Shown one piece after another: positions 1-50,260 of a DNA stretch of 64,000 bases. Position 1 is the stretch's first letter. Every line of letters begins with the position of its first letter. Under the pieces are notes generated by a model. The model worked only from the letters and a program-made list of their open reading frames with translations, was not told where the DNA came from and did no database searches. The translations under genes and the position numbers were made by a program. The stretch is taken from positions 125,632-189,631 of the forward strand of contig JBAZFG010000002.1 of NCBI GenBank assembly GCA_041653515.1. The letters run 5' to 3'. The DNA comes from Candidatus Nanoarchaeia archaeon. Lineage in GTDB: Archaea; Nanobdellota; Nanobdellia; WJKC01.

Positions 1-180
1 AAATATAACTGCGGCAAGCTAATCAGACCATTCATAAAAAAACACAAAAAGGAAGGGGTTAAAAGATTATTGTATAAAAAGTCATTTATAAGTTTTGAAT
101 CATTAAAAAAAGAACCAATTACTTATATGGGCTTTTTATTTATGAAATCTCTGGAGTTTACTGCGTGGTGCTTTGGTATC

Positions 181-7279: not shown

Positions 7280-7287
7280 AACATTTT

Positions 7288-12862: not shown

Positions 12863-14770
12863 TTGTGTAGTTTAAGTTGTTTAATGAGGCGGGAGCATTT
12901 ATTATTATTGCTAATTTTGTTGCTTGGCGCTGGCTTGCGTTTGTATTCGTTGCGCAATGAATACTTCACTGGTAATGACGCGTTCATTCATTATAGTGTT
13001 ATCAGGCAGGCCTTGGTTGATGGCAACTTAGTTACTTATGAGCTTAGTTATGGTAATCCTGTTATTCTTGAGCCGTTGGGCTTTTATTTAGTGACACTTA
13101 TCCCATCATTTGTTCTTGGGCTTGACATAGCTTTCCTGTTAATGCCTGTGTTGTCTGGCGTGCTGTGCCTGCTGGTTGCTTATTACTTGTTAAGGGATTT
13201 GTTTGGCGAGCGAGCGGCTTTGATTGCAGTGCTGTTATTATCCTTGTCAATGGCTCATATTTACCGCACGAGCGCTAACACTTATCGGGGTGATGGTTTC
13301 TTCCTGACTGCTTTCTTGTTAACGCTTTATTATTTCAATAAGTCACTTAAGGCATCAGTTAAGTATTCAGTAGTTACTGGCTTGTTAATGACTCTTTGCG
13401 CTTCCTTGTGGAATGGTTATCCATTAGGCGTGATTGTTATTATCAGTGGTTTGATAATTAATTCAACTCTTAAGTTCTTGAAGAATGATTTTGCTAAAAA
13501 GGATTTGACTAATATTTTTGCTTTATTAGTGACTTATTATTTCACTGAGTTAATTCTTATTTTGACTGGCGTTACTAAGCGTTTGTTTTTCACGAGCAAT
13601 AACGCTGTTCACGCGGTCATTACTTTTGCGCCTTTGTTTATTGGGGTGATTTATTATTTCACTAAGCGCGTTAAGAAGTCAAGTGTTCTTGGCGTGCTGG
13701 CGGTTGTTGGGGTAGTCTTGTTGTTGTTGAATATTAATACAGTTTCATCGTTAGTGGCTCAGTCATTGTTTGAGAATACTTTGTTCTATGAAGTTGGTGT
13801 TAGTGAATTATTGCCGCCAACTTTTGATTTGTTGAGCGCGATGCTATCATGGTCTCTTTTCCTGATGTGGCCTGGCTTGTTGTTATTAGTGTTGCTAATC
13901 CTGAAGAAGCGTGACGCGCGCCATATTACTTTTCTTGTTTGGTCAGTTATAACAATTTACTTGATGCTTAATTACTCGCGTTATAATTTCATTGTATCAG
14001 TCAGCGCCGCTGCCTTGTCCGCACTGTTCATTAATTATCTTTATTTAAAGGCAGAGCAGTATCGTAAGAACGCTGGTCTTGTGCTGGTCTTAGTTCTTGT
14101 CCTGCTTTATGTGTTTGTTATTCCTTTAACAGGGTCTGTCACTAATTTGTTTAATAATCTTAACAGTGTTAGTCCGCGCGTGAATGCAGAGTGGGCTGAT
14201 GCCTTGACTTGGATGAGAGATAATCTTGAGCCTGACTTAACTGTTACTTGGTGGGACCATGGCTCTTGGGTTCAGTATTTTGCTGGTTTTCCCACAATTG
14301 CTGATAGTGTTACTGGTCAGGATATTGGCCGGATTACTCGAGTGGCTCAATTCTTGATGACTGCTAAGAATGATACTTTTAGTGACCTTGGCGCTAAGTA
14401 CTTAGTCTTGGGGGCTGATGACGTTCTTTATTCTAATGCAATTGTTAGTATTGCTGATGTTAGGGGTTTTGAGATGTATGGGCTTGACAGTGGTTATTTC
14501 CAATCAAATGATGATGAGTTGTATTTTATTAGCGGCGACCTTGTGCTCGCGCCTCGTTTCGTGTTCTTTGCTAATCAGTCAATTCCGTTGATAGAGTCTA
14601 ATGGCACTGGTTGTTTGATGATTAATTATCTTGAGCCAAGGCCTTATTTATTATTCCTTAATGATTATGCTTGCAATACTAATTATGCTCAATTAATGTT
14701 TGGTCTGGGCTTGCCTGGTTTTGAATTATTGTATCAGAATGATTATGTAGTTGTTTATAGGATTGAATGA
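12863..14770 (+). CDS. short AglB/STT3-superfamily oligosaccharyltransferase-like membrane protein
   Basis: Multi-TM N-terminus with 'GNDAFIHY' first-loop acidic motif and 'WWDHGSWVQY' variant of the STT3 WWDYG motif; start is probably the internal 'MRREH'. Confidence 0.5.
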   Translation: MCSLSCLMRREHLLLLLILLLGAGLRLYSLRNEYFTGNDAFIHYSVIRQALVDGNLVTYELSYGNPVILEPLGFYLVTLIPSFVLGLDIAFLLMPVLSGVLCLLVAYYLLRDLFGERAALIAVLLLSLSMAHIYRTSANTYRGDGFFLTAFLLTLYYFNKSLKASVKYSVVTGLLMTLCASLWNGYPLGVIVIISGLIINSTLKFLKNDFAKKDLTNIFALLVTYYFTELILILTGVTKRLFFTSNNAVHAVITFAPLFIGVIYYFTKRVKKSSVLGVLAVVGVVLLLLNINTVSSLVAQSLFENTLFYEVGVSELLPPTFDLLSAMLSWSLFLMWPGLLLLVLLILKKRDARHITFLVWSVITIYLMLNYSRYNFIVSVSAAALSALFINYLYLKAEQYRKNAGLVLVLVLVLLYVFVIPLTGSVTNLFNNLNSVSPRVNAEWADALTWMRDNLEPDLTVTWWDHGSWVQYFAGFPTIADSVTGQDIGRITRVAQFLMTAKNDTFSDLGAKYLVLGADDVLYSNAIVSIADVRGFEMYGLDSGYFQSNDDELYFISGDLVLAPRFVFFANQSIPLIESNGTGCLMINYLEPRPYLLFLNDYACNTNYAQLMFGLGLPGFELLYQNDYVVVYRIE

Positions 14771-18074: not shown

Positions 18075-19508
18075 TTATATACATTTTGTCTTTTTGGCAT
18101 ACAATAAGCTAATTATTTTTTTAATTAACTTAGTGATAAAACCCCTATCCTGCTTGTCAAGCACTTTATAGTAAACCATGAGCGCGTAAAAGACTGCTGC
18201 TAGGCTAAATAAAAGTATTTTCATTATTGGTCCAGTATAAACATTAACCACTATTATTAGTGGCAATGCGCTGATTAATGACTTAACATAACTAACCCAA
18301 TTATGTTTGACATACTTACGCTGTGTTACACTCATTATTATCAGTGCGCTAACCATTAAACCAGTAAATATTATTGATGCGTTAAAAGCATTAATTAAAT
18401 AACTGCTTAGTGCTATGGTGATAATTACTTTTATTATTGAAATCCATAAAACTATTCTCGGCTTGCCTGTGCCATAAGTAATTGATTCATATATCTGATA
18501 AAAAGCCATTGCTGATAAGCCAATAGCCATTACTCTAAAAACACTTATCATCCCCAAGTACTCGCTGCCTAATAATAATGTTATGATAAAATTAGATGCT
18601 GAGAAAAAAATAGTTGCTATTGGCAAAGCGTAAATGAAAACATACTTCATGAACCGGCCGGTTAATTCTTTTATTTCCTCTTTTTTCTTATTAATAATGC
18701 TTGGCAGTAACGCGCTACTGATTGCGCCTGAGATTAATAAAATAAACAATCCTGCTTTGTTTGATAAGTCAAAGAAACTAAGCTCACTTGAATTAAAACC
18801 CAAGTATAAGTTCATCAAATAATTTGATAATGTCATAAAAATTGATGTGAAAAACATTGTTGTTGAGTACTTTAATAATTCTTTTCTCTCAGTAAACTCA
18901 CTGCCTTTGCTTAACTTATTGTAAATGACTGCATAAGCAAATAATACTGTTATTAAGTAACTAATGCCATAACCAATCACTGCGCCAGTGATTCCAAGAC
19001 CAATTATTATTAAGAGTAATGACGCAAACTTTGTGGCACTAAACAATAAGTCAACGTTCATGTAATGCTTCAAATTATTAAACCCTTGAAATATGTAGTA
19101 AGAAATATTCATTAATATGAAGAATGGGATAAACAACGCTGTTAATCTTAAATAACTGCCTAGTTCAGTATTGTTGTAAAAAACACCAATATAATCTGCT
19201 GCTACAAACACTGCTATAGCTGTTATTACACCAATTATTAACCTAACACTTATAATTTTCTTAACTAAACTAGCCATTTGCTCCTTATACTTCTGCATGA
19301 AATAAGGGAGCCCATGCTCTAAACCAAGAGTTGTTAGTTGGTGTGATAATGTTAGTATTGTAATTACTAAAGCGAAAGTTCCGTAATCAGTTGGGCCAAG
19401 TAATCTGGCAAGAAAGAATATTAATACCATTGATAGCACTGTGCTAACTGACTTACCTATTAAGTGCCAAGTAGCGTTCTTACCTACTTTCTTGATTACT
19501 TCTTCCAT
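18075..19508 (-). CDS. Wzx/AglR-like oligosaccharide flippase (polysaccharide biosynthesis protein)
   Basis: 477 aa, ~12-14 hydrophobic helices, sits inside the glycosylation gene context. Confidence 0.55.
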   Translation of the reverse strand: MEEVIKKVGKNATWHLIGKSVSTVLSMVLIFFLARLLGPTDYGTFALVITILTLSHQLTTLGLEHGLPYFMQKYKEQMASLVKKIISVRLIIGVITAIAVFVAADYIGVFYNNTELGSYLRLTALFIPFFILMNISYYIFQGFNNLKHYMNVDLLFSATKFASLLLIIIGLGITGAVIGYGISYLITVLFAYAVIYNKLSKGSEFTERKELLKYSTTMFFTSIFMTLSNYLMNLYLGFNSSELSFFDLSNKAGLFILLISGAISSALLPSIINKKKEEIKELTGRFMKYVFIYALPIATIFFSASNFIITLLLGSEYLGMISVFRVMAIGLSAMAFYQIYESITYGTGKPRIVLWISIIKVIITIALSSYLINAFNASIIFTGLMVSALIIMSVTQRKYVKHNWVSYVKSLISALPLIIVVNVYTGPIMKILLFSLAAVFYALMVYYKVLDKQDRGFITKLIKKIISLLYAKKTKCI

Positions 19509-19511
19509 TAT

Positions 19512-20312: not shown

Positions 20313-21041
20313 ATGATTAATAAAGCTGTTATTCTTGCCGGCGGTAAGGGAACCCGCATCGCTAACCCTGACATGCCTAAAGCCATGATTAAACTTAACG
20401 GAACCCCGATACTCGAAAACACCCTGCAATTGCTCGGCGGCTGCGGCATTAACGAGGTATTCATGTTAGTCCATTACCTTAAAGAGCAGATTATTGGTTA
20501 CTTTGGCAGTGATTTTAATGGAATGAAAATTAATTATGTCAACGTTCATGAAATCTTGAAATATGACCAGCCTATTGGTATCGCTGACGTGCTCGGCGTA
20601 ATGGATGGCCGCATTAACGAGCCATTCTTAATGATTCTTGGCGATGAAGTTTACGCTGGCACTAAGCACCCTGATATGCTTAAATCATTTAATCCTGTTT
20701 ATGACGCGATGATTGGTGTCATGCGCACTACTGATGAGCGCGCAATAAAGAAGAATTATACTCTGCGGGTTGATGATGCCTTTAATGTCACTGACCTTGA
20801 AGAGAAGCCTGATGCGCCTTGGAATGACTTGCTTGGCTGCGGCACTTACATCTTTACCCCTAAGGTCTTTGATTATATCAGGCAGACACCGTTGTCTGCT
20901 AAGAGCGGCCGCCGAGAGATTACTGACACGCTTAAGGTGATTGCGGCTAATGGCTTGCTCGCTGCCTTTGACCTTGGCGGCAGTTACGTCAATATTAATT
21001 ATAAAGAAGACATTGCCCTTGCTGAAAAACTTTTTAAGTAG
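20313..21041 (+). CDS. sugar-1-phosphate nucleotidyltransferase
   Basis: 'AVILAGGKGTRIANPDMPKAMIKL'; clearly higher GC than upstream genes. Confidence 0.7.
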   Translation: MINKAVILAGGKGTRIANPDMPKAMIKLNGTPILENTLQLLGGCGINEVFMLVHYLKEQIIGYFGSDFNGMKINYVNVHEILKYDQPIGIADVLGVMDGRINEPFLMILGDEVYAGTKHPDMLKSFNPVYDAMIGVMRTTDERAIKKNYTLRVDDAFNVTDLEEKPDAPWNDLLGCGTYIFTPKVFDYIRQTPLSAKSGRREITDTLKVIAANGLLAAFDLGGSYVNINYKEDIALAEKLFK

Positions 21042-21050
21042 CCCACCCGA

Positions 21051-22289
21051 TTGTTTTACTTAATGAAGGTATGCATTGTTTGTGATTACTTGCCTGAATA
21101 CCATGATACTTGGGGTGGGGGTGAGAAAGCCTCAATCAGCATTGCCCGTTTACTGGCAAGTAAAGGCGAGGCTGTGTCAGTGGTAACTAAGAAACCAAAT
21201 AAGCCTGTTAAAGAGTTGTTTAAGCATTATTCTTTAAGGACTACTGAGGACTTCCTTGGCAGTAAGGCTGGTCTTTATTTCTCGCGCTTCAAGTCAATCT
21301 GGGTTCCGTTTGATTTAATCACTTATTTCTCCGCGCTAAAACTATTCAGGCGTATCAAGCCTGACATTATTAGTCTTGGCAATTTCCGCGAGTTATCACT
21401 TTCTGTTGTCCTTGCCGCGCACAAGCTTAACATACCAGTTGTTTATTCGGTTTATGATTACTGGTTATTCTGCCCTAAGATTGATTTAGTTGATAATAAT
21501 GGTTCTTGCAGTGCCAATTGCAATAAGTGTATTTCAGGCGAGCGCTTTGGCTCATTCAAGCGCTTGTTGGTGCCTTTAAGGAATTTTATTTTTAACCGGA
21601 TTAGTTTTGACCGCGTGATTGCATTGTCAGATAACTCGCGTCAGTTAATAGCCCGGCACGGCGTTAATAAGAATAAGTTAAGGGTTGTCCCGTTGCCGTT
21701 TGGTGACTTAAAGACTGACTTGAAGTCAAGGGTTGACCCTAATCTGATATTATTCATGGGCTGGGTTCATCACCGGAAGGGCCTTAAAATCCTTGTTCAG
21801 GCGATGAACTTGCTTGCCAAGTCAAACCCTAAGGCAAGGCTCGTTGCGCTTGGAATGCCAGCTGATAAGTCTTACGAAACTGCTGTCAGGTCAATCATGG
21901 GTGGTAACGTTGAGTTAGTTATTGGCCGTAAACCGCTTGATGAGGTTAAAAAGTTAGTTGCCCGCGCAGGTATTATTGTTATCCCGGAACAATGGGCTAA
22001 CATGTCGCCGGTGCTGCTTATCGAGTCTATGTTTAATGCCAAGCCAATCATTGCGAGCAGGGTTGGGGGCATCCCGTCATTTATCAAGCATGGTGAGAGC
22101 GGCTTGCTCGCCTGCCATGACAAGCCTGATGACTTCGCGCGACAAATTAAGTTATTGCTTGACAGCCCATCACTGGCCAAGCGCTTTGGGCTTAAAGCCC
22201 GGGAGCAGGCGCTTGATAAATTTAATAAGAACAAGGTTTATTTCAAGCTAATGAGTGTTTATGGCGGTTTACTCAAGCAAAAAGCCTGA
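21051..22289 (+). CDS. GT4-family glycosyltransferase
   Basis: 'MKVCIVCDYLPEYHDTWGGGEKA' N-terminus; C-terminal 'PEQWANMSPVLLIESMFNAKPIIASRVGGIP'; GC-rich codon usage. Confidence 0.7.
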   Translation: MFYLMKVCIVCDYLPEYHDTWGGGEKASISIARLLASKGEAVSVVTKKPNKPVKELFKHYSLRTTEDFLGSKAGLYFSRFKSIWVPFDLITYFSALKLFRRIKPDIISLGNFRELSLSVVLAAHKLNIPVVYSVYDYWLFCPKIDLVDNNGSCSANCNKCISGERFGSFKRLLVPLRNFIFNRISFDRVIALSDNSRQLIARHGVNKNKLRVVPLPFGDLKTDLKSRVDPNLILFMGWVHHRKGLKILVQAMNLLAKSNPKARLVALGMPADKSYETAVRSIMGGNVELVIGRKPLDEVKKLVARAGIIVIPEQWANMSPVLLIESMFNAKPIIASRVGGIPSFIKHGESGLLACHDKPDDFARQIKLLLDSPSLAKRFGLKAREQALDKFNKNKVYFKLMSVYGGLLKQKA

Positions 22290-23286
22290 AGAAGTTTATG
22301 GCAAGTTATTCTCCGATGTTAAGGGCAAGCGGGTAATAATTAAGCCTAACTTAGTTACTGACTTGCCGGCTAATAGCGGCGTCACCACTGACCTGCGCTT
22401 AGTGTCAAAACTAATTAAGTTCCTTAAGGGTCGTGGCGCCAAAGTAATTGTGGCTGAATCAGGTCTTGCTCACACTGATAGTATCATTAAGAAACTTAAA
22501 CCATCATTTAAAGTGGTTAACCTTGACAACTGTGATCGCGTGCCTGTCAAGTCACTGACTGGCTTGATATTAAAGGAGTTCCGCCTGCCAAAAATCGTTG
22601 TTGAAGCGGACTTAATCATTAGTTTTGCTAAGATGAAGACTCACGCTCTCACTACTGTCACGCTGTCAATCAAGAACTTATTTGGCTTGTTATGTCAGGG
22701 CGAGCGGAAGAAATCTCACGTGCAGGGATTAAATGAGTCAATTGTTGATTTATTCTCAGCCCTGCCAAAAGTAGTTGGTTTGGTTGATGGCCTGATCGCT
22801 CTTGACGGCAAGTTCGGGCCAGTCAGCGGTTCGCCCCGCAAAGTAGGGCTGGTCATTGGCTCAACCGACCCGCTTGCTTGTGATTCTTATTGCGCTAAAT
22901 TAATGGGTGCTAACCCTAATAAAATCACTCACATGCGCTTGTGCGCTAAAAATTGTCTTGGCAGTTTTGATGATACTGATGTTAAGGGCTTGTCATTTGA
23001 CTTGCCGCCTTTCTTCATGCCATTAGCCAGCAAGTTATTGGAGCGTTATCGCCGGCGCAAGCCTTATTTGATGAGCCCTGATAATTGCGTTAAGTGCCTT
23101 GAGTGCGTTAATAATTGTCCTGTTAAGGCTATCTCAAAGTCAATTGAGTTTGATTACAATAAGTGTATTGGCTGCATGGTCTGCGTTGAGTCATGCAAGC
23201 ATAAAGCGCTTGGGTATAAACTTAGCCTGCCAACGAGGGTGATTCATTACTTGTTTAAGACTTTCTTTAAGAGACGGCGCAAGTAA
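22255..23286 (+). CDS. DUF362 domain protein fused to 2x[4Fe-4S] ferredoxin domain
   Basis: N-terminal region similar to 32819..33880 (DUF362-like); C-terminal 'CVKCLECVNNCP' and 'CIGCMVCVESCK' CxxCxxCxxxCP clusters. Confidence 0.55.
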   Translation: MFMAVYSSKKPEEVYGKLFSDVKGKRVIIKPNLVTDLPANSGVTTDLRLVSKLIKFLKGRGAKVIVAESGLAHTDSIIKKLKPSFKVVNLDNCDRVPVKSLTGLILKEFRLPKIVVEADLIISFAKMKTHALTTVTLSIKNLFGLLCQGERKKSHVQGLNESIVDLFSALPKVVGLVDGLIALDGKFGPVSGSPRKVGLVIGSTDPLACDSYCAKLMGANPNKITHMRLCAKNCLGSFDDTDVKGLSFDLPPFFMPLASKLLERYRRRKPYLMSPDNCVKCLECVNNCPVKAISKSIEFDYNKCIGCMVCVESCKHKALGYKLSLPTRVIHYLFKTFFKRRRK

Positions 23287-24356
23287 TACTTTATTGTGTA
23301 AGGCCTCATTGACTGGGTCATCTTGTAGATTGCTTCCTGCTGTTCTTTTGGGTAAGCATCTGATTGTGGTTTGGCGTGCTCGCCATAAAAAGTCATGTCT
23401 GCCCGGCTATCATCAGTTGGCGGGATAAAATAAGAGAAGTGGCCGTTGACGCCTTCATTTTTAACCCACTCAACGTTCGCTAGGTCACTCTTGTATGTTG
23501 AGCCCGGCAAGCCAATGATGAAATAACAATTAACACTCCTGAAGTATTTTTTCGCAATCCTGACCGCTTTCTTCACTTGTTCTGGTTTCAAGCCTTTCTT
23601 AATGTTCTTTAATACAACCAGACTTAGGCTCTCCACCCCGAAACTAACGTGATTGCAGCCGGAGCCTGAGATTGCCTTGGCTTGCTCCTTGTTGAATAAG
23701 TCAGCGCGCAAGCCGTTGGTGCAAAACCACTTTAAGTTTAATGGTTTTATCAATTCGCAAAACTCAATAACCCTCTTGTTGACTGCGTTAAAGCAGTCAT
23801 CAATTATCTGAAATGACTTAATGTCATACTCCTTTTTTGCTTTCTTTATTTCTTCATAACAATTCTTGGCGCTTCTCATCCTTAAACGCCTGTTCCTTGA
23901 CGCGCAGTAAATGCACTGGAACGGGCAGCCAAGGCTCGTCAGCACTGGGTAAGCCCACTTGCCGCTTGACCAGTTATCCCTGAACGTCTCGTATGAGTCA
24001 AATAGGGAGTAATCAGGGAATGGCAGTTTGTCATTAAAATCATTGTTAATGTTAACATTGCTCTTGAATTGGTTGAATGGGTAGCAGCACTGGACGTCAA
24101 CAACCCCTGTCACTGACTTGACTCTTGATTTTGGGTGAGCCCGCTTGTACTCAGCCTTTATCCTTTTACTTTCATTGTAAGCGGCTGAGCGGATTGAGAT
24201 TAGTGCTGTGTCATCATTAACTTTTAAGTACCTTTTTTTTGGTTTTTGCTTAGTATTAAGGTCAATTACCCGGCTTTTCTTGAGCGTGGCAATGTAAGCA
24301 AGGCTCATGTTTGGCAGGTCCCTGTTAATCCCAGAATTAGGGTTTATCAGTATCAT
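23247..24356 (-). CDS. radical SAM protein (B12-binding-like N-terminus)
   Basis: 'SLGCPFQCIYCAS' CxxxCxxC; N-terminal 'LINPNSG...MSLAYIATLKK' resembles the B12-binding segment of the two flanking class-B rSAMs. Confidence 0.65.
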   Translation of the reverse strand: MILINPNSGINRDLPNMSLAYIATLKKSRVIDLNTKQKPKKRYLKVNDDTALISIRSAAYNESKRIKAEYKRAHPKSRVKSVTGVVDVQCCYPFNQFKSNVNINNDFNDKLPFPDYSLFDSYETFRDNWSSGKWAYPVLTSLGCPFQCIYCASRNRRLRMRSAKNCYEEIKKAKKEYDIKSFQIIDDCFNAVNKRVIEFCELIKPLNLKWFCTNGLRADLFNKEQAKAISGSGCNHVSFGVESLSLVVLKNIKKGLKPEQVKKAVRIAKKYFRSVNCYFIIGLPGSTYKSDLANVEWVKNEGVNGHFSYFIPPTDDSRADMTFYGEHAKPQSDAYPKEQQEAIYKMTQSMRPYTIKYYLRRLLKKVLNK

Positions 24357-25465
24357 TTTTTCCTGACCGTTTTTTTGTAGATTGAGCAGTTAGCGCATGG
24401 GGCTGGCACTTTGCCTTTCCTTAAGCCTTCCCTTAATTCTTTGTAGTCCTTCCCAAACCAAATCTCTTTTAGTGAAAGTTCCTTAATGTTGCCAAGCGAT
24501 GTTTTCTTCTGGAAATCCCTTTGATTGGCCTCGTTTCCGACGCAGCAGGGAATAACATGTCCTGTTACGAATACGAAAGGCATTATCCATTCAATGCACT
24601 TATCCATTGGTTCCTTGTCATCTGGTACGTTGGCCCCATAGTGCATTCTTATACCATAAGAATTGGCCTTAGCCTTGACTTGCCTAAAATAAGTGTTAGG
24701 CACTTTAGTTACGAGGTTCTTTATCTCCTTGAATGGGTGTAATAATAATGTGTATATGACTTTAACGTCATCATTCATCTTAATGCTGTTAACGTAGTCC
24801 ATGAATAACGGCACTTCCTTGACGTTTATTTTGTTGACAATGAAGTGAAAGTTGACTTCCGGGAATGGTTTTTTCATTTCCTTTTTTAGTTCTATTAGCT
24901 TCTTGATGTTCTTTGTTACTACGTCAAAATTTGAGCCAACCCTTATTTTCTCGTAAGTCTCCTTTGTGGCTCCGTCAATCGAAGCCAGTATCCTATCAAC
25001 TCCTAATTCAATCAGTTTTCTTGCAATCTTTTCATTGAGGAAGATAAATGAGTCATATATCTCGACGTATATCTTCTTTTTCTTGACGTACTCTATCATC
25101 TTAAGGTAATCTTTATTTAGGAACGCTTCCCCTATCCCTGTCAGACCTATCCATTTCAAGTGTGGGAACTGGTCAATTATTCTCTTAAATTCCTCAAAGT
25201 TCATGTCCCTTGCGGGTTCACTCCAGTACGTGTGCTCGCATATTTTGCATTTGAGGTTGCACTTGGTTGTGACTTCTATTTCCATGAAAGGGGGGGTTAT
25301 ATTAAAGAACCTGCCAAGTTTTATTAGTAGCAGGTTGCTCCAGAATTTTGATTGCCATAATAAGTAGAACCATGTGTAATTATATGTTGCTTTTAGTCCT
25401 TGATGCCTTAACATGTTGTAAATAAATTTTGAGTACCTCTTGACTTTCATTATTACCTGTTTCAT
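24353..25465 (-). CDS. radical SAM / SPASM-like domain protein
   Basis: 'TTKCNLKCKICEH' CxxxCxxC; C-terminal Cys-rich 'CCVGNEAN...CANCS' auxiliary-cluster-like region. Confidence 0.6.
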   Translation of the reverse strand: MKQVIMKVKRYSKFIYNMLRHQGLKATYNYTWFYLLWQSKFWSNLLLIKLGRFFNITPPFMEIEVTTKCNLKCKICEHTYWSEPARDMNFEEFKRIIDQFPHLKWIGLTGIGEAFLNKDYLKMIEYVKKKKIYVEIYDSFIFLNEKIARKLIELGVDRILASIDGATKETYEKIRVGSNFDVVTKNIKKLIELKKEMKKPFPEVNFHFIVNKINVKEVPLFMDYVNSIKMNDDVKVIYTLLLHPFKEIKNLVTKVPNTYFRQVKAKANSYGIRMHYGANVPDDKEPMDKCIEWIMPFVFVTGHVIPCCVGNEANQRDFQKKTSLGNIKELSLKEIWFGKDYKELREGLRKGKVPAPCANCSIYKKTVRKK

Positions 25466-25490
25466 TATGATCTTTTATGATTATTTTCTT

Positions 25491-26573
25491 TTAAATCTTT
25501 TTATTGGCTTTGAATTCCTTTGAGTACTTTCTGGTTAGTTTAATGTATTCATTTCCGTACTCGTGGCTTGGCTCTATCTCGGTTCCCTCGTGCCACTCGT
25601 TGAAGCTAGTGATTGACACTACTTGAGGGTTCTTCTTTATAGCTGCTTCCCAGCAGCGTTTGTAAACACTGCCTTTTTCCCTTGACACGACTGCGTAATG
25701 CTTGATGCCGAGTGTTATTAATATCCACTTGAAGTCGCCCCTGGCTAATCGCTTGAGTAATTTGACAAATAAAGTCCACACCCGTTTGATTGAGAAATTG
25801 CTTTTTAACCCTTCAGCTAACTCGCCGATGAATTCTTTTGGTATCTCTTTGACCCCTGAGTCATCATAGCCTGGCATGACTGTCAGCACGCAAATCTTCT
25901 TGTGCTTGTCGCACATGCCTTTTATTTTTGAGTACTCAGTGAACATGTTTTTCTTGTTGAATAAAGCGTCAAGGTAAGTGTACCTGAAAGCGCCGTCAAA
26001 ATTACTAACCCATTCTTCATACTTGGAGTCAACTATTAAGTAAGCGCCGGTCGCTTTCTTAACTAAATCCCTGACTACCAGCCACTTGTTGAGTCCTAAT
26101 TGCATTAGCACTCTTGCGTATAATATGATGAACGGCTTGCCGTTAACCCTGAAAAATGATTTGTGCTTGCCATACTTGTTAATCAGTCCAATTAAGTGTT
26201 TGGCCACTTTCTCCGGCTCAAAACTATTGGGCAGGTCCTCGTAATAGAATGTTAGTTTAACGCCGGGCGTCTTGTCAGCGATGCTTAGCATTTTTTCGAA
26301 GTTTTTGTGCGTGTGAGTCATCTTCTGCTCCCAGATTGAGACGAGTAACGCGTTAATGCCTGCTTCTTTTGCCATCCTTAAGTGCTCTTTTATCACTGCT
26401 GGGTCGCTTGAGTCATAAGCGCCGAGTAACGGGTGGTCGGCTGACGCAATATCAGGCAAGCCCTTTATTTTCCTGTCAGGGTCATGGCCGCCTTGTTTCC
26501 ATTTAAGCCATTGCTTTGAGTGTTTTGGGCTGCCAAACCATGGGTAATAAAAAGCGAGCACTTTCTTGTTCAT
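25491..26573 (-). CDS. glycoside-hydrolase-like TIM-barrel protein (GH99/GH71-like)
   Basis: N-terminal 'AFYYPWFG...W.KW' motif reminiscent of the GH99 endo-alpha-mannosidase family; weak. Confidence 0.3.
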   Translation of the reverse strand: MNKKVLAFYYPWFGSPKHSKQWLKWKQGGHDPDRKIKGLPDIASADHPLLGAYDSSDPAVIKEHLRMAKEAGINALLVSIWEQKMTHTHKNFEKMLSIADKTPGVKLTFYYEDLPNSFEPEKVAKHLIGLINKYGKHKSFFRVNGKPFIILYARVLMQLGLNKWLVVRDLVKKATGAYLIVDSKYEEWVSNFDGAFRYTYLDALFNKKNMFTEYSKIKGMCDKHKKICVLTVMPGYDDSGVKEIPKEFIGELAEGLKSNFSIKRVWTLFVKLLKRLARGDFKWILITLGIKHYAVVSREKGSVYKRCWEAAIKKNPQVVSITSFNEWHEGTEIEPSHEYGNEYIKLTRKYSKEFKANKKI

Positions 26574-27634
26574 AGAACTTTTTTGAAATTGCTTCCATTT
26601 ATAATTATTCTGTTTAATCCTTTCATGTGCGCTTTGACCCCAAATCTTTCTGCGTTTTTTTTGCAGTCGCTTGCCTTGAATTTATTATGCCAGTTCTGCA
26701 ATACCCTGATTAAGTTCTCCTCGTATGGCTCGTTTATTAGCACGCCTGTTTTGTTAGTGATTGTTTCCTTGAACCCTCCGTCATTGACTGCGATGACTGG
26801 TTTGCCTGACGCATTAGCTTCAACTGGCACTAAGCCAAAGTCCTCGCCTTTGTTTAATTGGATGACTGCCTTGCACTCTGAGTAATATTTTCTTAATTCA
26901 GTCTCACTTAACCGGCCGAGTAACTTAATGTTTTTGTTAGCCATTGCTTTTAGTTCTTCCATCATCATGCCAGTGCCTGCTATCATTAATTCTTGTCCTG
27001 TCTTATTGAACACTTTGATTAGTGTGTCAATGCGCTTGACTGGCTCGAGTCTTGATACGCAAAAGAAGTAATCTTTTGACTTGGCTTGTTTGTAGTCTTT
27101 TAGTTCGGTTGGCGGGTAAATCACTATTATTTTTTTGTCTGGGTAAATCTTTTGCATAATATTTTTCATGTAATAACTGTTAGCGATTACAACATCAATT
27201 TTCTTGACTGCTTTTTGGTCTGCTCTTATTGTTAATTTACTTACTAAGTTGACTAACCAATTCTTTTTTTCCAATCCATAACTGACTTTGTTTGGGTGTT
27301 CTGAGTACCAGATTGTTTTTTTACCTGACTTGCTTGCAACAACGTGACTGTTAGGTGTTTCAGCAAGCACTAAATCATATTGCTTTAGGAACGAGCCTTT
27401 TTTCAGGCACCAGAATAAGTTTACTATTGTCCTAAACATTGGCAGTTTTCGTGCCCAAGGCATTAATTCTATTATTCTTGCTTCCTTGAAGTATTCTGGA
27501 TAAACTTTTGAGTCATAGACGCTGGTATAAATTGTCACGTCATGTTTTTTTGATAATTCCTGATAGTGAATACCTGTTACTTTTTCTGCCCCGCCAATAT
27601 TTGTTAGGAATGGCACGATTATTGCTATTTTCAC
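26570..27634 (-). CDS. GT4-family glycosyltransferase
   Basis: 'EDFGLVPVEANASGKPVIAVNDGG' E-x7-E motif. Confidence 0.7.
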   Translation of the reverse strand: MKIAIIVPFLTNIGGAEKVTGIHYQELSKKHDVTIYTSVYDSKVYPEYFKEARIIELMPWARKLPMFRTIVNLFWCLKKGSFLKQYDLVLAETPNSHVVASKSGKKTIWYSEHPNKVSYGLEKKNWLVNLVSKLTIRADQKAVKKIDVVIANSYYMKNIMQKIYPDKKIIVIYPPTELKDYKQAKSKDYFFCVSRLEPVKRIDTLIKVFNKTGQELMIAGTGMMMEELKAMANKNIKLLGRLSETELRKYYSECKAVIQLNKGEDFGLVPVEANASGKPVIAVNDGGFKETITNKTGVLINEPYEENLIRVLQNWHNKFKASDCKKNAERFGVKAHMKGLNRIIINGSNFKKVL

Positions 27635-32818: not shown

Positions 32819-33880
32819 TTATACTTTTAACCCACCACGTCTGCATAATGGCCTGTATAGTGTTTTTAGCCAGCTGTTCTGGCAGACGTTCTTGGCGTAT
32901 TTCTTGCCGTGCAGGTTGTACCAGATGATTGTGTTATAGATCGTGGCGCCCCAGGCTGGTATCTTGAATATTGGTGTGTCAAAGATTAACCATTTGAGGC
33001 CTGGCACTTTCCTCAAGCTCATCTCTAGTAAAAATATTGGTTGTGAGTTGGCTTTAGGAGGCTTGAATGGGTCAGTGTAGAATTTATCCCCGATAATCTC
33101 GTATTTCATCTCACCCACACCCATCTCTTGAGCATTAATGAGCATTTTATTATCATCTGTTGGTAAGCCCATGAAATTACTGCCTGCAGTGTCAATTGAT
33201 ACTCGGTCGTGGCTAGCCATTATTAAGTCGCATTGTTTTGGCACGCCTGTGCGTGGCGCGTTGCCTTCCATGACCATTGTAACATCCATGACTGCGAACT
33301 GGATTTTCTTTAAGTAAGCGTTAATGTCAGCAATACACTGATTAGCCCTAGTGTGGTATTGGTGTCTGACTCGTGGCACAATGCCCCACTGGTTCTTTAA
33401 GCCGCCGGTTAATCGGGTTAAGCAGTGAGTTTTTAGTATTGGCAGTGTGATTATGACATCAGCGTCAACAACTGTTTTAGGTAAGTCCAGTTCCTTGAAT
33501 ACTTTGCCACCAACCTTGACTTTAACCATCTTATCCTTGCTAAGGTTGATGAATGGCGCGTTGTATTTCTCGCCTAATTGTTTGAAACCCCATGCTTGGA
33601 TTGCTTCATCCAAGTGCTCTGATGCTGCTAGGTCAGCGTCGCCCATAGTGATTTGGGCTTTAGGCAATTCTTTTCTTATCTTCATTAAGACTGCCTCAAC
33701 CACCCAAGGACTGGTGCACTGGCCAGGCACTACTTGGTTGCTCATAGCATTAACTTTAAGGAATATCTTATTGCCTTTAACGTATTTTTTCCAGTCAGCT
33801 AATTCCATTGCGCGCCAAACTGTCTCGAACACGCCTGTACGGCTTCTCTTCTTGATTTTACAGAAAGCTACTTTACTCAT
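32819..33880 (-). CDS. DUF362 domain protein
   Basis: Aligns with the N-terminal two-thirds of 22255..23286, e.g. 'VKGNKIFLKVN'/'VKGKRVIIKPN' and 'LPILKTHCLT'/'FAKMKTHALT'. Confidence 0.5.
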   Translation of the reverse strand: MSKVAFCKIKKRSRTGVFETVWRAMELADWKKYVKGNKIFLKVNAMSNQVVPGQCTSPWVVEAVLMKIRKELPKAQITMGDADLAASEHLDEAIQAWGFKQLGEKYNAPFINLSKDKMVKVKVGGKVFKELDLPKTVVDADVIITLPILKTHCLTRLTGGLKNQWGIVPRVRHQYHTRANQCIADINAYLKKIQFAVMDVTMVMEGNAPRTGVPKQCDLIMASHDRVSIDTAGSNFMGLPTDDNKMLINAQEMGVGEMKYEIIGDKFYTDPFKPPKANSQPIFLLEMSLRKVPGLKWLIFDTPIFKIPAWGATIYNTIIWYNLHGKKYAKNVCQNSWLKTLYRPLCRRGGLKV

Positions 33881-36945: not shown

Positions 36946-38328
36946 TTAGTTTAAGAGAATCTTTGAAGGTTTAAAGAAATTATTCAGAATGTTCCTAATA
37001 GGTGCTTCCCTGTGTGAGATATTATTGAATATATAAGCTAGTTTGGTAAAGTCTATTAACTCATCGAATGGAATCTTTTCTTTCAGCAGGTAAGTGCCTT
37101 TCCTAATCATGTTGTCATAATCAAGCCATTCCATTGGTTTGATAACACCTTTCTTCTTGAGTAATTCATAATAATCTGCGCCAGGGTCAGGGGTAAATAC
37201 GTAGAAATGAGCAAAGTTAGTTTTATTCTTAATGGCAAAATTAATTGTTTTAATTATAGAATCCCTTGTTTCACCTGGTGCCCCAATGATGTGGCTTGCA
37301 CTAATTTCTATACCAAAAGCCTTTAATTTTTCAATACCTTGGCTTATCTGCCTGATTGTTAAGCATTTGTTCATTGACTTAAGTATTTCATCATCCCCTG
37401 ATTCAACCCCAACAAAAGCTCTCTTGTAACCTGTTTTATGCATTATATTGAGCAAGTCATTATTTATTGTGTCAAGCCGAGTGTTACTGCCCCATGTGAT
37501 GTCAAGTTTTTCTTTTTTAATTAGACTTGTGAATTCAGTGATAAACTTATGATTAGCTGTCATTGTATCATCATAAAACATAATCTTATTGGATTTAGTG
37601 ACGTCAATAACCTGTTTTATTTCATTGATAACACTTGATGGGCTTCTAAAATTAACCTTTTTTCCAAACATTTTTTTAGAAGCACAAAACTTGCAACCAA
37701 AAGGGCATCCTCTTGAAGCTATTAATACATTATAAGTATCTTCTGCCCCAAGTTTTCTATGATTACTTGGTTTGTATTTATCTAATGGGAATAAATCTCT
37801 GGCTGGGAAAGGCAGGTCATTCAGGTCAGTACTGGTTGGTTTTGTGGGGTTTAGGATGATCTTCTTGCCTTTTTTGAATACAATACCATTAACCTCTTCT
37901 AACCTTTGGTTAGCCAGTATCTTAACAATGGTTTCTTCTCCTTCACCTAGCACGCCTATATCAAAACAGTTTAATGAAATGGTTTCTAAAGGTTCTGATG
38001 TGATGTGAATGCCGCCTAGAATTATCTTTGCATTAGTTTTTGATTTTATTTCACTGGCTATCTTAATCGTATTCTTCATAAGAGGGGTTGTTGATGTAAG
38101 ACCTATAAACTTAATGTCCTTTGAGTTAATCCTTTTTATTACATCCTCAATAGTGAATTCTTCAACATTTAAGTCAAGGCATTCAACCCTATAACCTGCT
38201 TTTCTTACGCTTGCGGCAATGTATGCTAGTCCAAGGGGTAAGCTTACTGTTTGGTTTTCCTGTCTTGAGATGTTGAAATGTTTTTTTTCAAAAAAATCTT
38301 TTTGCGGGGGATTAATGAGCAATAACAT
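36946..38328 (-). CDS. B12-binding-domain radical SAM protein (class B rSAM)
   Basis: 'SRGCPFGCKFCAS'; N-terminal 'LPLGLAYIAASVRKAGYRVECLD'; paralog of 181..1704. Confidence 0.7.
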   Translation of the reverse strand: MLLLINPPQKDFFEKKHFNISRQENQTVSLPLGLAYIAASVRKAGYRVECLDLNVEEFTIEDVIKRINSKDIKFIGLTSTTPLMKNTIKIASEIKSKTNAKIILGGIHITSEPLETISLNCFDIGVLGEGEETIVKILANQRLEEVNGIVFKKGKKIILNPTKPTSTDLNDLPFPARDLFPLDKYKPSNHRKLGAEDTYNVLIASRGCPFGCKFCASKKMFGKKVNFRSPSSVINEIKQVIDVTKSNKIMFYDDTMTANHKFITEFTSLIKKEKLDITWGSNTRLDTINNDLLNIMHKTGYKRAFVGVESGDDEILKSMNKCLTIRQISQGIEKLKAFGIEISASHIIGAPGETRDSIIKTINFAIKNKTNFAHFYVFTPDPGADYYELLKKKGVIKPMEWLDYDNMIRKGTYLLKEKIPFDELIDFTKLAYIFNNISHREAPIRNILNNFFKPSKILLN

Positions 38329-50197: not shown

Positions 50198-50204
50198 TAA
50201 TTCA

Positions 50205-50217
50205 TTTTTTTTTTTTT
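50205..50217 (+). terminator. 13-nt oligo-T tract (archaeal-type terminator), followed by a TATA-like 'TTTATAAGG'
   Basis: T13 run just 3' of the R15P isomerase stop; ~45 nt upstream of the AMP phosphorylase start. Confidence 0.4.
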
Positions 50218-50260
50218 ATAAGGGTAATATCTTTAAATCCTGATATGTTAAGAAACATTA

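What the first reader, a model, noticed from the sequence alone, without database searches (positions are those of the whole stretch)
20313..26573. GC-rich six-gene cassette (NT, GT4, DUF362-ferredoxin, two radical SAM, GH-like) inside the glycosylation island
GC content jumps from ~30% in the flanking genes to ~45-55% here (for example 20401-20460 vs 19501-19560), and codon usage shifts to GCC/CCG/GGC. The cassette combines conventional glycan genes with a DUF362-2x[4Fe-4S] protein, a B12-like radical SAM and a SPASM-type radical SAM. This points to a horizontally acquired module for an oxygen-sensitive radical modification of a sugar or glycan (C-methylation, epimerisation, dehydration or deoxygenation), which has not been described for archaeal N-glycosylation. 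The small ORFs overlapping on both strands at 21872-22251 are artefacts of the high GC.
Basis: partly seen in the sequence, partly recalled or inferred. Interest (0 to 1): 0.72.

Follow-up and report, generated by a model that had tools for sequence, protein, structure and literature searches.

The report
Radical-SAM sugar-tailoring module in archaeal glycan island
A DPANN archaeon's surface-glycan gene island carries an uncharacterised gene module (two radical-SAM enzymes, a cysteine-rich glycosyltransferase and a sugar-activating enzyme) that recurs in uncultured bacteria and archaea of more than 15 lineages and probably makes an unusual sugar without oxygen.

Summary
The six genes and their domains are real. 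The composition shift is real but overstated. The cassette has 42.8% GC against a 37.8% window mean, and GC3 of 0.48-0.55 against 0.39. It is not 45-55% GC.

The source is a Candidatus Nanoarchaeia MAG. Its core is a four-gene module:
- a twitch-type radical SAM enzyme, closest solved relative BtrN;
- a short class-B-like radical SAM enzyme, closest AprD4, a sugar diol-dehydratase that does not bind cobalamin;
- a GT4 with four invariant cysteines;
- a sugar-1-phosphate nucleotidyltransferase.

The module keeps its gene order in most of 24 surveyed loci; all four genes are present in 16. These loci come from more than 15 bacterial and archaeal lineages and sit in glycan clusters. In one lineage the AprD4-like enzyme is fused to a Wzx flippase.

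DUF362-ferredoxin and the GH99-like gene are accessories seen only in Nanoarchaeia. The DUF362 domain has a LarA racemase fold and keeps LarA's His/Lys/His cofactor triad.

The whole island is syntenic in related archaea, so acquisition was not recent. The best reading is anaerobic radical oxidation or deoxygenation of a lipid-linked sugar. The exact chemistry is unknown. No paper describing the module was found.

The parts
20313..21041 (+). Sugar-1-phosphate nucleotidyltransferase (NT), a core module gene
   Evidence: PF00483 scores 69 bits. The best NCBIfam hit is AglF at 130 bits, below its cut-off of 400. PDB relatives are Glc-1-P thymidylyl/uridylyl and Man-1-P guanylyl transferases at E about 1e-12. 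The gene follows the Cys4-GT4 in most of the 24 surveyed loci.
21063..22289 (+). GT4 glycosyltransferase of a Cys4-bearing subfamily, a core module gene. The ORF opens at TTG 21051; the database homologue starts at ATG 21063.
   Evidence: Pfam Glycos_transf_1 and Glyco_transf_4 both hit. P0241 is 100% identical and 408 aa long.
21471..21530 (+). Invariant four-cysteine motif in the GT4 N-domain: C141-x11-C153-x3-C157-x2-C160. It is presumed to be a metal or Fe-S site.
   Evidence: All four cysteines are present in 23 of 23 orthologues. The motif occurs in 25 of the 28 top homologues and in 2 of 92 weaker GT4 hits. The N-domain has no sequence match among solved GT4 structures.
22261..23286 (+). 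DUF362 (LarA-like fold) fused to a 2x[4Fe-4S] ferredoxin domain. This is an accessory gene seen only in Nanoarchaeia relatives. It is the proposed electron donor or redox partner.
22642..22719 (+). Invariant H128...K138...H153 of the DUF362 domain
   Evidence: The three residues are invariant in 35 and in 13 aligned DUF362 proteins. A profile alignment places them on the H/K/H of malate racemase Mar2. The corresponding LarA residues are catalytic His174, the NPN-tethering Lys184 and the Ni-ligand His200 (PMC11770544).
23247..24356 (-). Short class-B-like radical SAM enzyme ('rSAM-B'), AprD4-like, a core module gene. The CxxxCxxC motif is at C144/C148/C151 (nt 23904-23927).
   Evidence: PF04055 scores 70 bits and there is no PF02310 hit. 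NCBIfam hits are all sub-threshold: HpnJ 93 of 578, AprD4 44 of 500. The AF2 model has pLDDT 92, and the top Foldseek hit is AprD4 (6fd2) at E 9e-16 with TM 0.72. C90/C91 (QCCYP) and C234 are invariant.
24353..25465 (-). Twitch/SPASM-type radical SAM enzyme, BtrN-like, a core module gene. The CxxxCxxC motif is at C69/C73/C76 (nt 25238-25261). Auxiliary-cluster cysteines are C290, C307, C308, C357 and C360 (nt 24386-24598).
   Evidence: PF04055 and PF13186 both hit. A family profile against the PDB puts BtrN first at E 3.8e-15, matching both the core and the C-terminal domain including BtrN's CxxC. Cysteine conservation is 22-23 of 23.
25491..26573 (-). GH99/WbsX-like protein with no N-terminal signal or transmembrane segment evident by eye. 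This is an accessory gene seen only in Nanoarchaeia relatives.
   Evidence: PF16317 scores 141 bits. BtGH99 endo-alpha-mannosidase (4acy) matches at E 4e-31, and the SITSFNEWHEGTxIEP segment is identical apart from one residue.
26570..27634 (-). GT4, first gene of the minus-strand operon, overlapping the GH99-like gene by 4 nt.
   Evidence: It is conserved next to DUF362-Fd in L002 and L088 at 59-60% identity.
18075..19508 (-). Wzx-type (Polysacc_synt) flippase of the island, given as context
   Evidence: In another lineage the rSAM-B enzyme is fused to this kind of flippase.
12863..14770 (+). AglB/STT3 oligosaccharyltransferase paralogue 1, given as context
40340..42958 (-). AglB/STT3 oligosaccharyltransferase paralogue 2, given as context
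32819..33880 (-). Second DUF362 protein, without a ferredoxin domain, 28% identical to the first. GC3 is 0.50.
36946..38328 (-). Radical SAM enzyme with a full B12-binding domain
   Evidence: PF02310 scores 77 bits and PF04055 94 bits.
181..1704 (-). Second radical SAM enzyme with a full B12-binding domain
   Evidence: PF02310 scores 75 bits and PF04055 106 bits.

Best explanation
The region is two convergent operons inside the surface-glycan/N-glycosylation island of a DPANN (Nanoarchaeia) archaeon. Its core is a four-gene module that is widespread but uncharacterised.

Proposed mechanism:
1. The nucleotidyltransferase activates a hexose-1-phosphate to an NDP-sugar.
2. The Cys4-bearing GT4 transfers that sugar to a polyprenyl-phosphate-linked glycan at the cytoplasmic face of the membrane.
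3. The two translationally coupled radical SAM enzymes abstract hydrogen atoms from that sugar. One is a BtrN-like twitch enzyme and the other is an AprD4-like, probably cobalamin-independent, enzyme. Together they oxidise and/or dehydrate the sugar, giving a keto, deoxy or rearranged sugar, without O2 or NAD(P).
4. In this archaeon the DUF362-2x[4Fe-4S] protein supplies the low-potential electrons, and the GH99/WbsX-like protein and neighbouring GTs process the glycan further.
5. The product is flipped by Wzx and can be used by AglB.

What is shown: gene content, conserved synteny, conserved cysteines, fold relationships and the flippase fusion.
What is inferred: the substrate, the order of steps, the chemistry and the electron-donor role.
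For: Domains are confirmed.

Synteny: the order twitch radical SAM, rSAM-B, GT4, NT is conserved. All four genes are present in 16 of 24 surveyed loci, and most of the remainder are cut by contig ends. The loci come from Nanoarchaeia, Micrarchaeia, Omnitrophota, Patescibacteria, Nitrospirota, Planctomycetota, Margulisiibacteriota, Elusimicrobiota, Gemmatimonadota, Desulfobacterota, Actinomycetes, Gammaproteobacteria and others. They sit among GTs, flippases, NDP-sugar enzymes or STT3.

Nearest solved relatives are carbohydrate radical SAM enzymes. AprD4, in complex with paromamine, matches the full-length AF2 model at E 9e-16 and TM 0.72. BtrN matches the family profile at E 3.8e-15 in both domains.

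Fusion: an 868-aa protein joins rSAM-B to a Wzx flippase in one continuous ORF with about 12 hydrophobic segments. It appears on two independent assemblies inside the same module. This ties the enzyme to lipid-linked glycan export.

The Cys4 motif is specific to the module's GT4 subfamily.

DUF362 homologues recur in other NDP-sugar and glycan loci alongside radical SAM genes.

The window holds two AglB genes, a flippase, a GPT and many GTs and NTs.
Against: No member of either radical SAM family has been characterised.

All curated family scores are far below their cut-offs.

The similarity to AprD4 and BtrN is at superfamily level (12-18% identity) and does not fix the reaction.

The substrate could be the NDP-sugar rather than the lipid-linked sugar.

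The best NCBIfam hits of the twitch enzyme are putative metalloenzyme maturases (155 and 115 bits).

Bacterial versions lack DUF362-Fd, so its electron-donor role is inferred only from adjacency and its ferredoxin domain.

Whether the glycan ends on proteins through AglB, or in another polymer, is not shown.
Confidence: 0.6

Rival explanations
1. The class-B-like radical SAM enzyme is a cobalamin-dependent C-methyltransferase that methylates the sugar.
For: The N-domain is homologous to B12-binding domains: family member P0365 hits PF02310 at 37 bits. Sub-threshold NCBIfam hits include the PhpK, Sden_1168 and MgmA-type methylases. Structural neighbours 3 to 23 are Cbl-dependent enzymes such as TsrM, MgmA, OxsB, CysS and TokK.
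Against: The window protein has no PF02310 hit at E <= 0.01, whereas two other radical SAM enzymes in the same window hit at 1e-21. Its N-domain is about 50 residues shorter than in ordinary class B enzymes: their cores align from their residue ~160 onto its residue ~109. The top structural match is AprD4, which does not bind cobalamin (PMC12931638). Full B12-radical SAM genes frequently sit beside the module as separate genes.
Confidence: 0.15
2. The radical SAM enzymes are protein maturases. They would post-translationally modify the cysteine-rich loop of the GT4, or another metalloprotein, rather than a sugar.
For: SPASM/twitch enzymes often act on peptides or proteins. The best NCBIfam hits of the twitch enzyme are the tungsten-cofactor oxidoreductase maturase (155 bits) and a 'metalloenzyme maturase' family (115 bits). 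The Cys4 loop is invariant, and the GT4 is nearly always adjacent.
Against: Both NCBIfam hits are far below their cut-offs of 380 and 400. BtrN is the best solved relative in both domains. In L090 the same twitch subtype is paired with GT4s that lack the Cys4 motif, and no rSAM-B is present. A fusion of rSAM-B to a flippase points to a lipid-linked substrate.
Confidence: 0.1
3. The module makes a soluble small molecule and only happens to neighbour glycan genes. Candidates are a pseudo-saccharide or cyclitol glycoside, or a thiol or compatible solute of the MshA/BshA kind.
For: AprD4 and BtrN are aminoglycoside-pathway enzymes that act on free pseudo-saccharides. The GT4 profile matches BshA and MshA among others. 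HpnJ, which contracts a glucosamine ring to a cyclitol, is the best NCBIfam hit of rSAM-B (PMC9204698).
Against: In every locus examined the module sits among multiple GTs, Wzx flippases, GT-C enzymes or STT3. It is physically fused to a flippase in one lineage. No cyclitol synthase or thiol-pathway genes were seen nearby.
Confidence: 0.1
4. The compositional step marks a very recent horizontal insertion of the six genes as a block, or a chimeric assembly.
For: The cassette is the highest-GC segment of the window, and its GC3 run is significant.
Against: An independent assembly, L001 (SRR18595300), spans the 20.3-kb junction with the same genes. Two other Nanoarchaeia lineages (L002/L003 and L088) carry the same cassette in the same island, with flanks 55-77% identical and cassette genes 54-70% identical. 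Their cassettes show no GC3 elevation. Only the twitch gene looks replaced: 40% identity to relatives against 49-50% to bacterial copies.
Confidence: 0.05

Closest known systems
AprD4 (radical SAM 1,2-diol dehydratase, apramycin pathway; PDB 6fd2)
   Same: Both have a two-domain architecture: a Rossmann-like domain derived from the B12-binding domain, followed by a radical SAM barrel. AprD4 is the best full-length structural match (E 9e-16, TM 0.72) and the best sequence match in the PDB. Both sit in a carbohydrate-pathway context.
   Different: Identity is 17%. The NF033070 score is 44 against a cut-off of 500. The window protein is about 85 residues shorter. It carries invariant extra cysteines (QCCYP, C234) of unknown role. 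No AprD3-like reductase partner is present. The context is a surface-glycan locus, not an antibiotic cluster.
BtrN (twitch radical SAM 2-deoxy-scyllo-inosamine dehydrogenase, butirosin pathway; PDB 4m7t)
   Same: BtrN is the best solved relative of the family profile, in both the core and the C-terminal auxiliary-cluster domain. The CxxC that aligns with BtrN C232/C235 is conserved. The number of conserved cysteines fits one auxiliary cluster.
   Different: The window protein is about 100 residues longer, with a roughly 55-residue N-terminal extension. It has a conserved CEHTYW motif. The family splits into two subtypes. The substrate is unknown.
HpnJ, and from my own knowledge calditol synthase Cds (radical SAM enzymes that remodel a sugar head group on a membrane lipid)
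   Same: HpnJ is the highest-scoring curated NCBIfam family for rSAM-B (93.5 bits). It acts on a glycosylated, membrane-anchored substrate made by a GT (PMC9204698). That logic matches the flippase fusion seen here.
   Different: The score is far below the HpnJ cut-off of 577.6. No hopanoid or GDGT genes are present. The Cds comparison rests on my own knowledge and was not tested.
LarA / DUF2088 nickel-pincer-nucleotide racemases (compared with the DUF362 domain)
   Different: DUF362 is about 170 residues shorter than LarA and is fused to a 2x[4Fe-4S] ferredoxin. Sequence similarity is not significant on its own (E 0.23). No larB, larC or larE genes are in the window. Cofactor content is unknown.
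Archaeal Agl N-glycosylation clusters (Haloferax and Methanococcus type)
   Same: AglB/STT3 (two copies), a Wzx-like flippase, an AglH-like GPT, an AglF-like NT and many GTs are clustered together.
   Different: From my own knowledge, the characterised Agl pathways include no radical SAM enzymes. No paper in the searched library links radical SAM enzymes to AglB-dependent glycans.

Membership tests
Radical SAM superfamily (both enzymes) | CxxxCxxC cluster motif and a PF04055 score above the gathering cut-off | tested here: met
   C144/148/151 and C69/73/76 are invariant in 23 of 23 sequences. PF04055 scores 70 and 60 bits against a cut-off of 29.5.
SPASM subfamily (two auxiliary clusters) | Seven- or eight-cysteine C-terminal motif able to ligate two auxiliary [4Fe-4S] clusters | tested here: not met
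   PF13186 hits at 49 bits, but only five conserved C-terminal cysteines are present (C290, C307, C308, C357, C360). This fits a single-cluster twitch domain, as in BtrN.
BtrN family | Close sequence relationship and DOIA dehydrogenase activity | tested here: inconclusive
   BtrN is the best PDB hit for the family profile at E 3.8e-15, matched in two stretches. Single-sequence E is 1e-8 over the core only. Activity cannot be tested here.
Class B (cobalamin-dependent) radical SAM | N-terminal B12-binding domain (PF02310) and bound cobalamin | tested here: inconclusive
   The window protein has no PF02310 hit at E <= 0.01. Family member P0365 hits weakly at 37 bits. The N-domain is about 50 residues shorter than in ordinary class B enzymes. 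The nearest structure, AprD4, does not bind cobalamin. Cobalamin binding cannot be tested here.
AprD4 family (NF033070) | NCBIfam score at or above 500 | tested here: not met
   43.9 bits. The fold similarity is nevertheless the best in the PDB.
HpnJ (TIGR03471) | NCBIfam score at or above 577.6, in a hopanoid gene context | tested here: not met
   93.5 bits, core region only. There are no hpn genes in the window.
Tungsten-cofactor oxidoreductase radical SAM maturase (TIGR04317) | NCBIfam score at or above 380, adjacent to an AOR-type oxidoreductase | tested here: not met
   155 bits. No AOR gene was seen in the window or in related loci.
GT4 glycosyltransferases | GT-B fold with Glyco_transf_4 N-domain and Glycos_transf_1 C-domain | tested here: met
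   PF00534 scores 91 bits and PF13439 55 bits. The C-domain aligns to solved GT4 enzymes.
TIGR04157 (glyco_rSAM_CFB, a GT family linked to radical SAM enzymes) | NCBIfam score at or above 400 | tested here: not met
   39.6 bits for the cassette GT4, and 40-67 bits for the neighbouring GT4s.
GH99 endo-alpha-mannosidase | PF16317 above cut-off, the conserved NEWHEG catalytic segment, and secretion or luminal location | tested here: inconclusive
   PF16317 scores 141 bits against a cut-off of 33. The SITSFNEWHEGTEIEP segment matches BtGH99. The protein shows no N-terminal signal or transmembrane segment by eye and also matches WbsX. Whether it acts as a hydrolase or a transferase is unresolved. 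The catalytic role of the EWHE glutamates is from my own knowledge.
LarA superfamily (NPN-dependent racemases) | LarA fold, Lys tether, His Ni-ligand, catalytic His, NPN cofactor and larBCE genes | tested here: inconclusive
AglF UDP-glucose pyrophosphorylase (NF041313) | NCBIfam score at or above 400 | tested here: not met
   130 bits. The protein is a generic sugar-1-P NT.
AglB-dependent archaeal N-glycosylation pathway | AglB, a lipid-carrier GPT, a flippase and GTs in one locus, with the product transferred to Asn | tested here: inconclusive
   The locus composition is met: two STT3, PF00953 GPT and Polysacc_synt. Transfer of the modified glycan to protein cannot be tested here.

The most novel reading that the evidence does not exclude
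The four-gene module is a previously unrecognised, pan-prokaryotic route to a radical-generated sugar. The sugar would be keto-deoxy, ring-contracted or carbocyclic, and it would be built on the lipid-linked glycan at the membrane and coupled directly to Wzx flipping. The module's GT4 would be the first Fe-S- or Zn-dependent GT4. In Nanoarchaeia the system would be powered by a DUF362 enzyme that uses a LarA-type (nickel-pincer-like) cofactor wired to two [4Fe-4S] clusters. That would assign a function to DUF362 and reveal a new redox use of the LarA fold.
Probability: 0.15. Interest if true: 0.85.

Novelty: new variant of a known kind. Interest (0 to 1): 0.62.

Why it matters
Radical SAM tailoring of sugars is known mainly from antibiotic pathways (AprD4, BtrN, DesII, GenK) and from lipid head groups (HpnJ). 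It is not known from cell-surface or N-glycan assembly.

This work defines a compact four-gene module that is tightly conserved and spans both domains. rSAM-B is about 50% identical between archaea and more than a dozen bacterial phyla. The module carries clear, testable signatures: a Cys4-GT4, a twitch radical SAM enzyme, a truncated class-B radical SAM enzyme and a fusion to a flippase.

It points to an unknown sugar in the envelopes of many uncultured anaerobes, including the reduced-genome DPANN and CPR organisms. It offers new radical SAM chemistry. It also gives a first functional handle on DUF362 as a LarA-like domain. If the module proves to be only a variant deoxy- or keto-sugar pathway, it is still a useful annotation for thousands of metagenomic loci.

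Tried and rejected
- Exact-sequence look-ups of the DUF362-Fd and twitch proteins found nothing. Their annotated starts differ from my ORF calls. The source was instead identified through the 100%-identical rSAM-B hit P0001.
- Six literature searches found no paper on the module. A 'DUF362' search gave only the Pfam-clan link to LarA.
- The idea that the two 515-aa ORFs (29615-31162 and 33959-35506) are paralogues was rejected: BLASTP E is 1.3.
- The first Cys4 regular expression was too strict, because bacterial orthologues carry a 4-6 residue insertion between the second and third cysteines. It was redone.
- The BtrN structure paper (PMC3791736) is not held. BtrN C232/C235 numbering was instead derived from the HMMER alignment to 4m7s/4m7t. 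The C169/C187 ligands are from my own knowledge.
- Model coordinates are not exposed, so I could not test whether the extra cysteines of rSAM-B cluster in space.
- No lar genes are in the window. The remaining ~128 kb of the source contig could not be read.

Full report
**Observation**

The six ORFs exist at the stated coordinates. Pfam and NCBIfam confirm the domain calls:
- NTP_transferase, 20313-21041
- GT4, 21051-22289. The database homologue starts at ATG 21063.
- DUF362 plus two 4Fe-4S ferredoxin motifs, 22255-23286. The homologue starts at 22261.
- Radical_SAM only, 23247-24356, minus strand
- Radical_SAM plus SPASM, 24353-25465, minus strand
- GH99/WbsX/GH71-like, 25491-26573, minus strand

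The composition claim is right in direction and wrong in size.
- The cassette is 42.8% GC against a window mean of 37.8% (sd 2.5 for 6.26-kb windows). It is the highest-GC stretch of that length. Only 5 of the 116 windows deviate more from the window's overall tetranucleotide usage, and those all lie in the low-GC 1-8 kb block.
- Only 5% of its 60-bp bins reach 55% GC.
- The 'about 30%' flank is a local low-GC patch holding a flippase and a GT2 at 18-20.3 kb.
- The signal sits mostly at third codon positions. GC3 is 0.48-0.55 in all six genes against 0.389 ± 0.075 for 51 window genes. A run of six genes that GC3-rich arose in 7 of 100,000 permutations.
- GCC, CCG and GGC are enriched, but moderately.

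The small ORFs at 21872-22251 lie inside the GT4 gene under its conserved C-terminal domain. I accept that they are spurious.

**Source and setting**

The class-B-like radical SAM protein is 100% identical to a protein from a 'Candidatus Nanoarchaeia archaeon' MAG on a 191.8-kb contig. Archaeal markers lie downstream: Cdc6/Orc1, FEN1 and NucS.

Positions 1 to about 43,000 form a glycan island. It contains:
- two AglB/STT3 genes, a Wzx-type flippase, an AglH-like GPT and GT-C-like membrane proteins;
- many GT4 and GT2 genes, four nucleotidyltransferases, PGM, a GHMP kinase, a 2-epimerase and a NUDIX protein;
- two further radical SAM enzymes with true B12-binding domains (181-1704 and 36946-38328);
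- a second DUF362 protein (32819-33880).

One runs NT, GT4, DUF362-Fd on the plus strand. The other runs GT4 (26570-27634), GH99-like, twitch radical SAM, rSAM-B on the minus strand. The boundary at 26573 therefore cuts an operon.

**The conserved unit**

Homologues of rSAM-B are unusually conserved, at about 50% identity between this archaeon and Omnitrophota, Patescibacteria, Margulisiibacteriota, Nitrospirota and others. I used gene tables from exact-match contigs and a scan of GTDB species genomes, then ran BLASTP of all ORFs in 24 orthologous loci against the window proteins.

The order twitch radical SAM, rSAM-B, GT4 (about 410 aa), NT (about 245 aa) recurs. All four genes are present in 16 of 24 loci, and most of the other loci are truncated by contig ends. 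These loci come from more than 15 lineages, all uncultured. They sit among other GTs, Wzx flippases, NDP-sugar epimerases, GT9 or STT3.

DUF362-Fd and the GH99-like gene accompany the core only in Nanoarchaeia relatives (L002/L003 and L088). Extra B12-radical SAM genes are frequent neighbours.

**Signatures of the four proteins**

*GT4.* The module's GT4 has four invariant cysteines in its N-domain, C141-x11-C153-x3-C157-x2-C160 in the window (23 of 23 orthologues).
- The motif tracks the subfamily: 25 of the 28 best homologues have it, against 2 of 92 weaker GT4 hits.
- The N-domain has no sequence match among solved GT4 structures.

*Twitch enzyme.* It has CxxxCxxC followed by EHTYW, and only five further conserved cysteines.
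- Its family profile hits BtrN first in the PDB (E 3.8e-15) in both the core and the C-terminal domain. The family's CxxC lies on BtrN's C232/C235.
- This fits one auxiliary cluster (a twitch domain) rather than a full SPASM domain.

*rSAM-B.* It has CxxxCxxC plus an invariant QCCYP motif and C234.
- Its AF2 model (pLDDT 92) matches AprD4 best over the full length (E 9e-16, TM 0.72), ahead of TsrM, MgmA, OxsB, MiaB, CysS and TokK. AprD4 is also the best hit by sequence.
- AprD4 is the radical SAM 1,2-diol dehydratase that deoxygenates the sugar of paromamine. It does not bind cobalamin (PMC12931638).
- In a library clustered at 50% identity, only about 20-25 representatives match over the full length. 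Ordinary class B enzymes match only from residue ~109 and have N-domains about 50 residues longer.
- One family member still hits PF02310 weakly, so the N-domain is a shortened B12-type domain.

All NCBIfam scores are far below their cut-offs: HpnJ 93 of 578, AprD4 44 of 500, W-cofactor maturase 155 of 380, AglF 130 of 400. None of the four proteins belongs to a curated family.

**Link to lipid-linked glycan**

Two cluster representatives of rSAM-B are 868-aa fusions to a Polysacc_synt/MatE (Wzx-type) flippase. One of them was found on two independently assembled contigs.
- It is an uninterrupted ORF with about 12 hydrophobic segments.
- It is followed by a B12-radical SAM gene, the twitch radical SAM gene, a Cys4-GT4 and an NT.

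This is the strongest evidence that the enzyme works at the membrane on the substrate of the flippase, or at least in the same pathway.

**DUF362-ferredoxin**

Close homologues occur only in Nanoarchaeia. Homologues at 37-42% identity also sit in sugar loci. One lies next to an SDR epimerase, an NT and UDP-glucose dehydrogenase. Another lies in a large cluster with a flippase, a GT15, two B12-radical SAM genes and two twitch radical SAM genes.

DUF362's invariant H128, K138 and H153 align with the H/K/H of Mar2. In LarA these are a catalytic His, the Lys that tethers the nickel-pincer nucleotide and the His that ligates Ni. The sequence alignment alone is not significant (E 0.23), and no lar genes are in the window.

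I treat the LarA-cofactor idea as a lead. The conservative reading is a dedicated redox partner that feeds electrons through its two clusters to the radical SAM enzymes.

**Horizontal transfer**

The inter-domain distribution at about 50% identity implies transfer at some time. However, L002/L003 and L088 carry the same cassette within the same island.
- Flanking genes are 55-77% identical and cassette genes 54-70% identical.
- Their cassettes show no GC3 elevation.
- An independent assembly spans the 20.3-kb junction (L001).

The six genes are therefore neither a recent block insertion nor a chimera.

Two genes do look replaced.
- The twitch gene is subtype A here. It is 49-50% identical to bacterial copies but only 40% identical to the subtype B of its closest relatives.
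- The low-GC flippase is 28% identical to the relatives' flippase.

The cause of the local GC3 rise remains open. It may be gene conversion from a richer relative, or expression-linked codon bias.

**Mechanism and rivals**

The best-supported model has these steps:
1. The NT makes an NDP-hexose.
2. The Cys4-GT4 adds the hexose to a lipid-linked glycan.
3. The BtrN-like and AprD4-like radical SAM enzymes perform O2- and NAD-independent oxidation and/or dehydration, or a rearrangement, of that sugar.
4. DUF362-Fd supplies electrons in Nanoarchaeia.
5. Wzx flips the product, and AglB or another polymerase uses it.

The general statement has a confidence of about 0.6. The specific chemistry has a confidence of about 0.25.

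Rivals:
- Cobalamin-dependent C-methylation (0.15).
- Protein maturation of the Cys-rich GT4 (0.1). This is weakened by L090, where the same twitch subtype pairs with GT4s that lack the motif.
- A soluble pseudo-saccharide or cyclitol product (0.1).
- Recent insertion or assembly artefact (0.05).

**Novelty**

No paper in the searched library describes the module or links radical SAM enzymes to AglB-type glycosylation. Radical SAM sugar tailoring as such is known from AprD4, BtrN and HpnJ. I therefore rate this a new variant of a known kind, with several features that are individually new: the Cys4-GT4, the radical SAM-flippase fusion and the LarA-like DUF362-ferredoxin.

Noticed in passing
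L091:2853-5459 and L092:2599-5205 (relatives; none in the window): An 868-aa fusion joins the AprD4-like radical SAM enzyme to a Wzx-type flippase. It is followed by a B12-radical SAM gene, a twitch radical SAM gene, a Cys4-GT4 and an NT. It was seen on two independent assemblies.
   Followed up: yes
window 22642-22719 and 32819-33880: Both DUF362 proteins keep an invariant His...Lys...His triad. It aligns with the catalytic His, NPN-tethering Lys and Ni-ligand His of LarA-family racemases. DUF362 may bind a LarA-type cofactor.
   Followed up: partly
window 24353-25465 compared with L002:4795-5994 and L088:6714-7913: The twitch radical SAM enzyme comes in two subtypes. The window copy is subtype A, 49-50% identical to bacterial copies. 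The nearest Nanoarchaeia relatives carry subtype B at 40% identity, although the adjacent rSAM-B is 68-70% identical. This suggests a gene swap inside the module.
   Followed up: partly
window 18075-19508: The Wzx-like flippase is low in GC (0.32). It is only 28% identical to the flippase at the same position in related islands, whose neighbouring genes are 55-77% identical. This looks like serotype-style replacement.
   Followed up: partly
window 1-7300: This is the most compositionally deviant block of the window (GC 0.27-0.32). It encodes a B12-radical SAM enzyme (181-1704) and two very large proteins of 909 and 950 aa. One of them has a faint AftD-like GT-C hit.
   Followed up: no
window 7288-7998: A GT4 C-terminal domain is split across two adjacent same-strand ORFs of 133 and 102 aa. 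It is probably a frameshifted or decaying GT4 gene.
   Followed up: no
window 12863-14770 and 40340-42958: Two divergent AglB/STT3 oligosaccharyltransferase paralogues (635 and 872 aa) bracket the island.
   Followed up: no
window 36946-38328 and 181-1704: Two radical SAM enzymes with full B12-binding domains sit in a DPANN glycan island. This raises the question of where this reduced-genome archaeon gets cobalamin. Similar enzymes flank the module in many bacterial loci.
   Followed up: partly
window 29615-31162, 31184-32422 and 33959-35506: Two unrelated 515-aa multi-pass membrane proteins have no Pfam hit. One of them is 38% identical to a PMT/GT-C-like protein in L088. Between them is an amine-oxidase/NAD_binding_8 flavoprotein. 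GC3 is also raised here (0.42-0.47).
   Followed up: partly
window 49295-51748: Ribose-1,5-bisphosphate isomerase (IF-2B family) lies next to an AMP or pyrimidine-nucleoside phosphorylase. These are two genes of the archaeal AMP salvage pathway.
   Followed up: no
L090:4541-11495 (relative): Two subtype-A twitch radical SAM genes are each followed by a GT4 that lacks the Cys4 motif. A DUF362 gene sits between them, and there is no AprD4-like enzyme. The twitch enzyme can therefore work without rSAM-B.
   Followed up: partly
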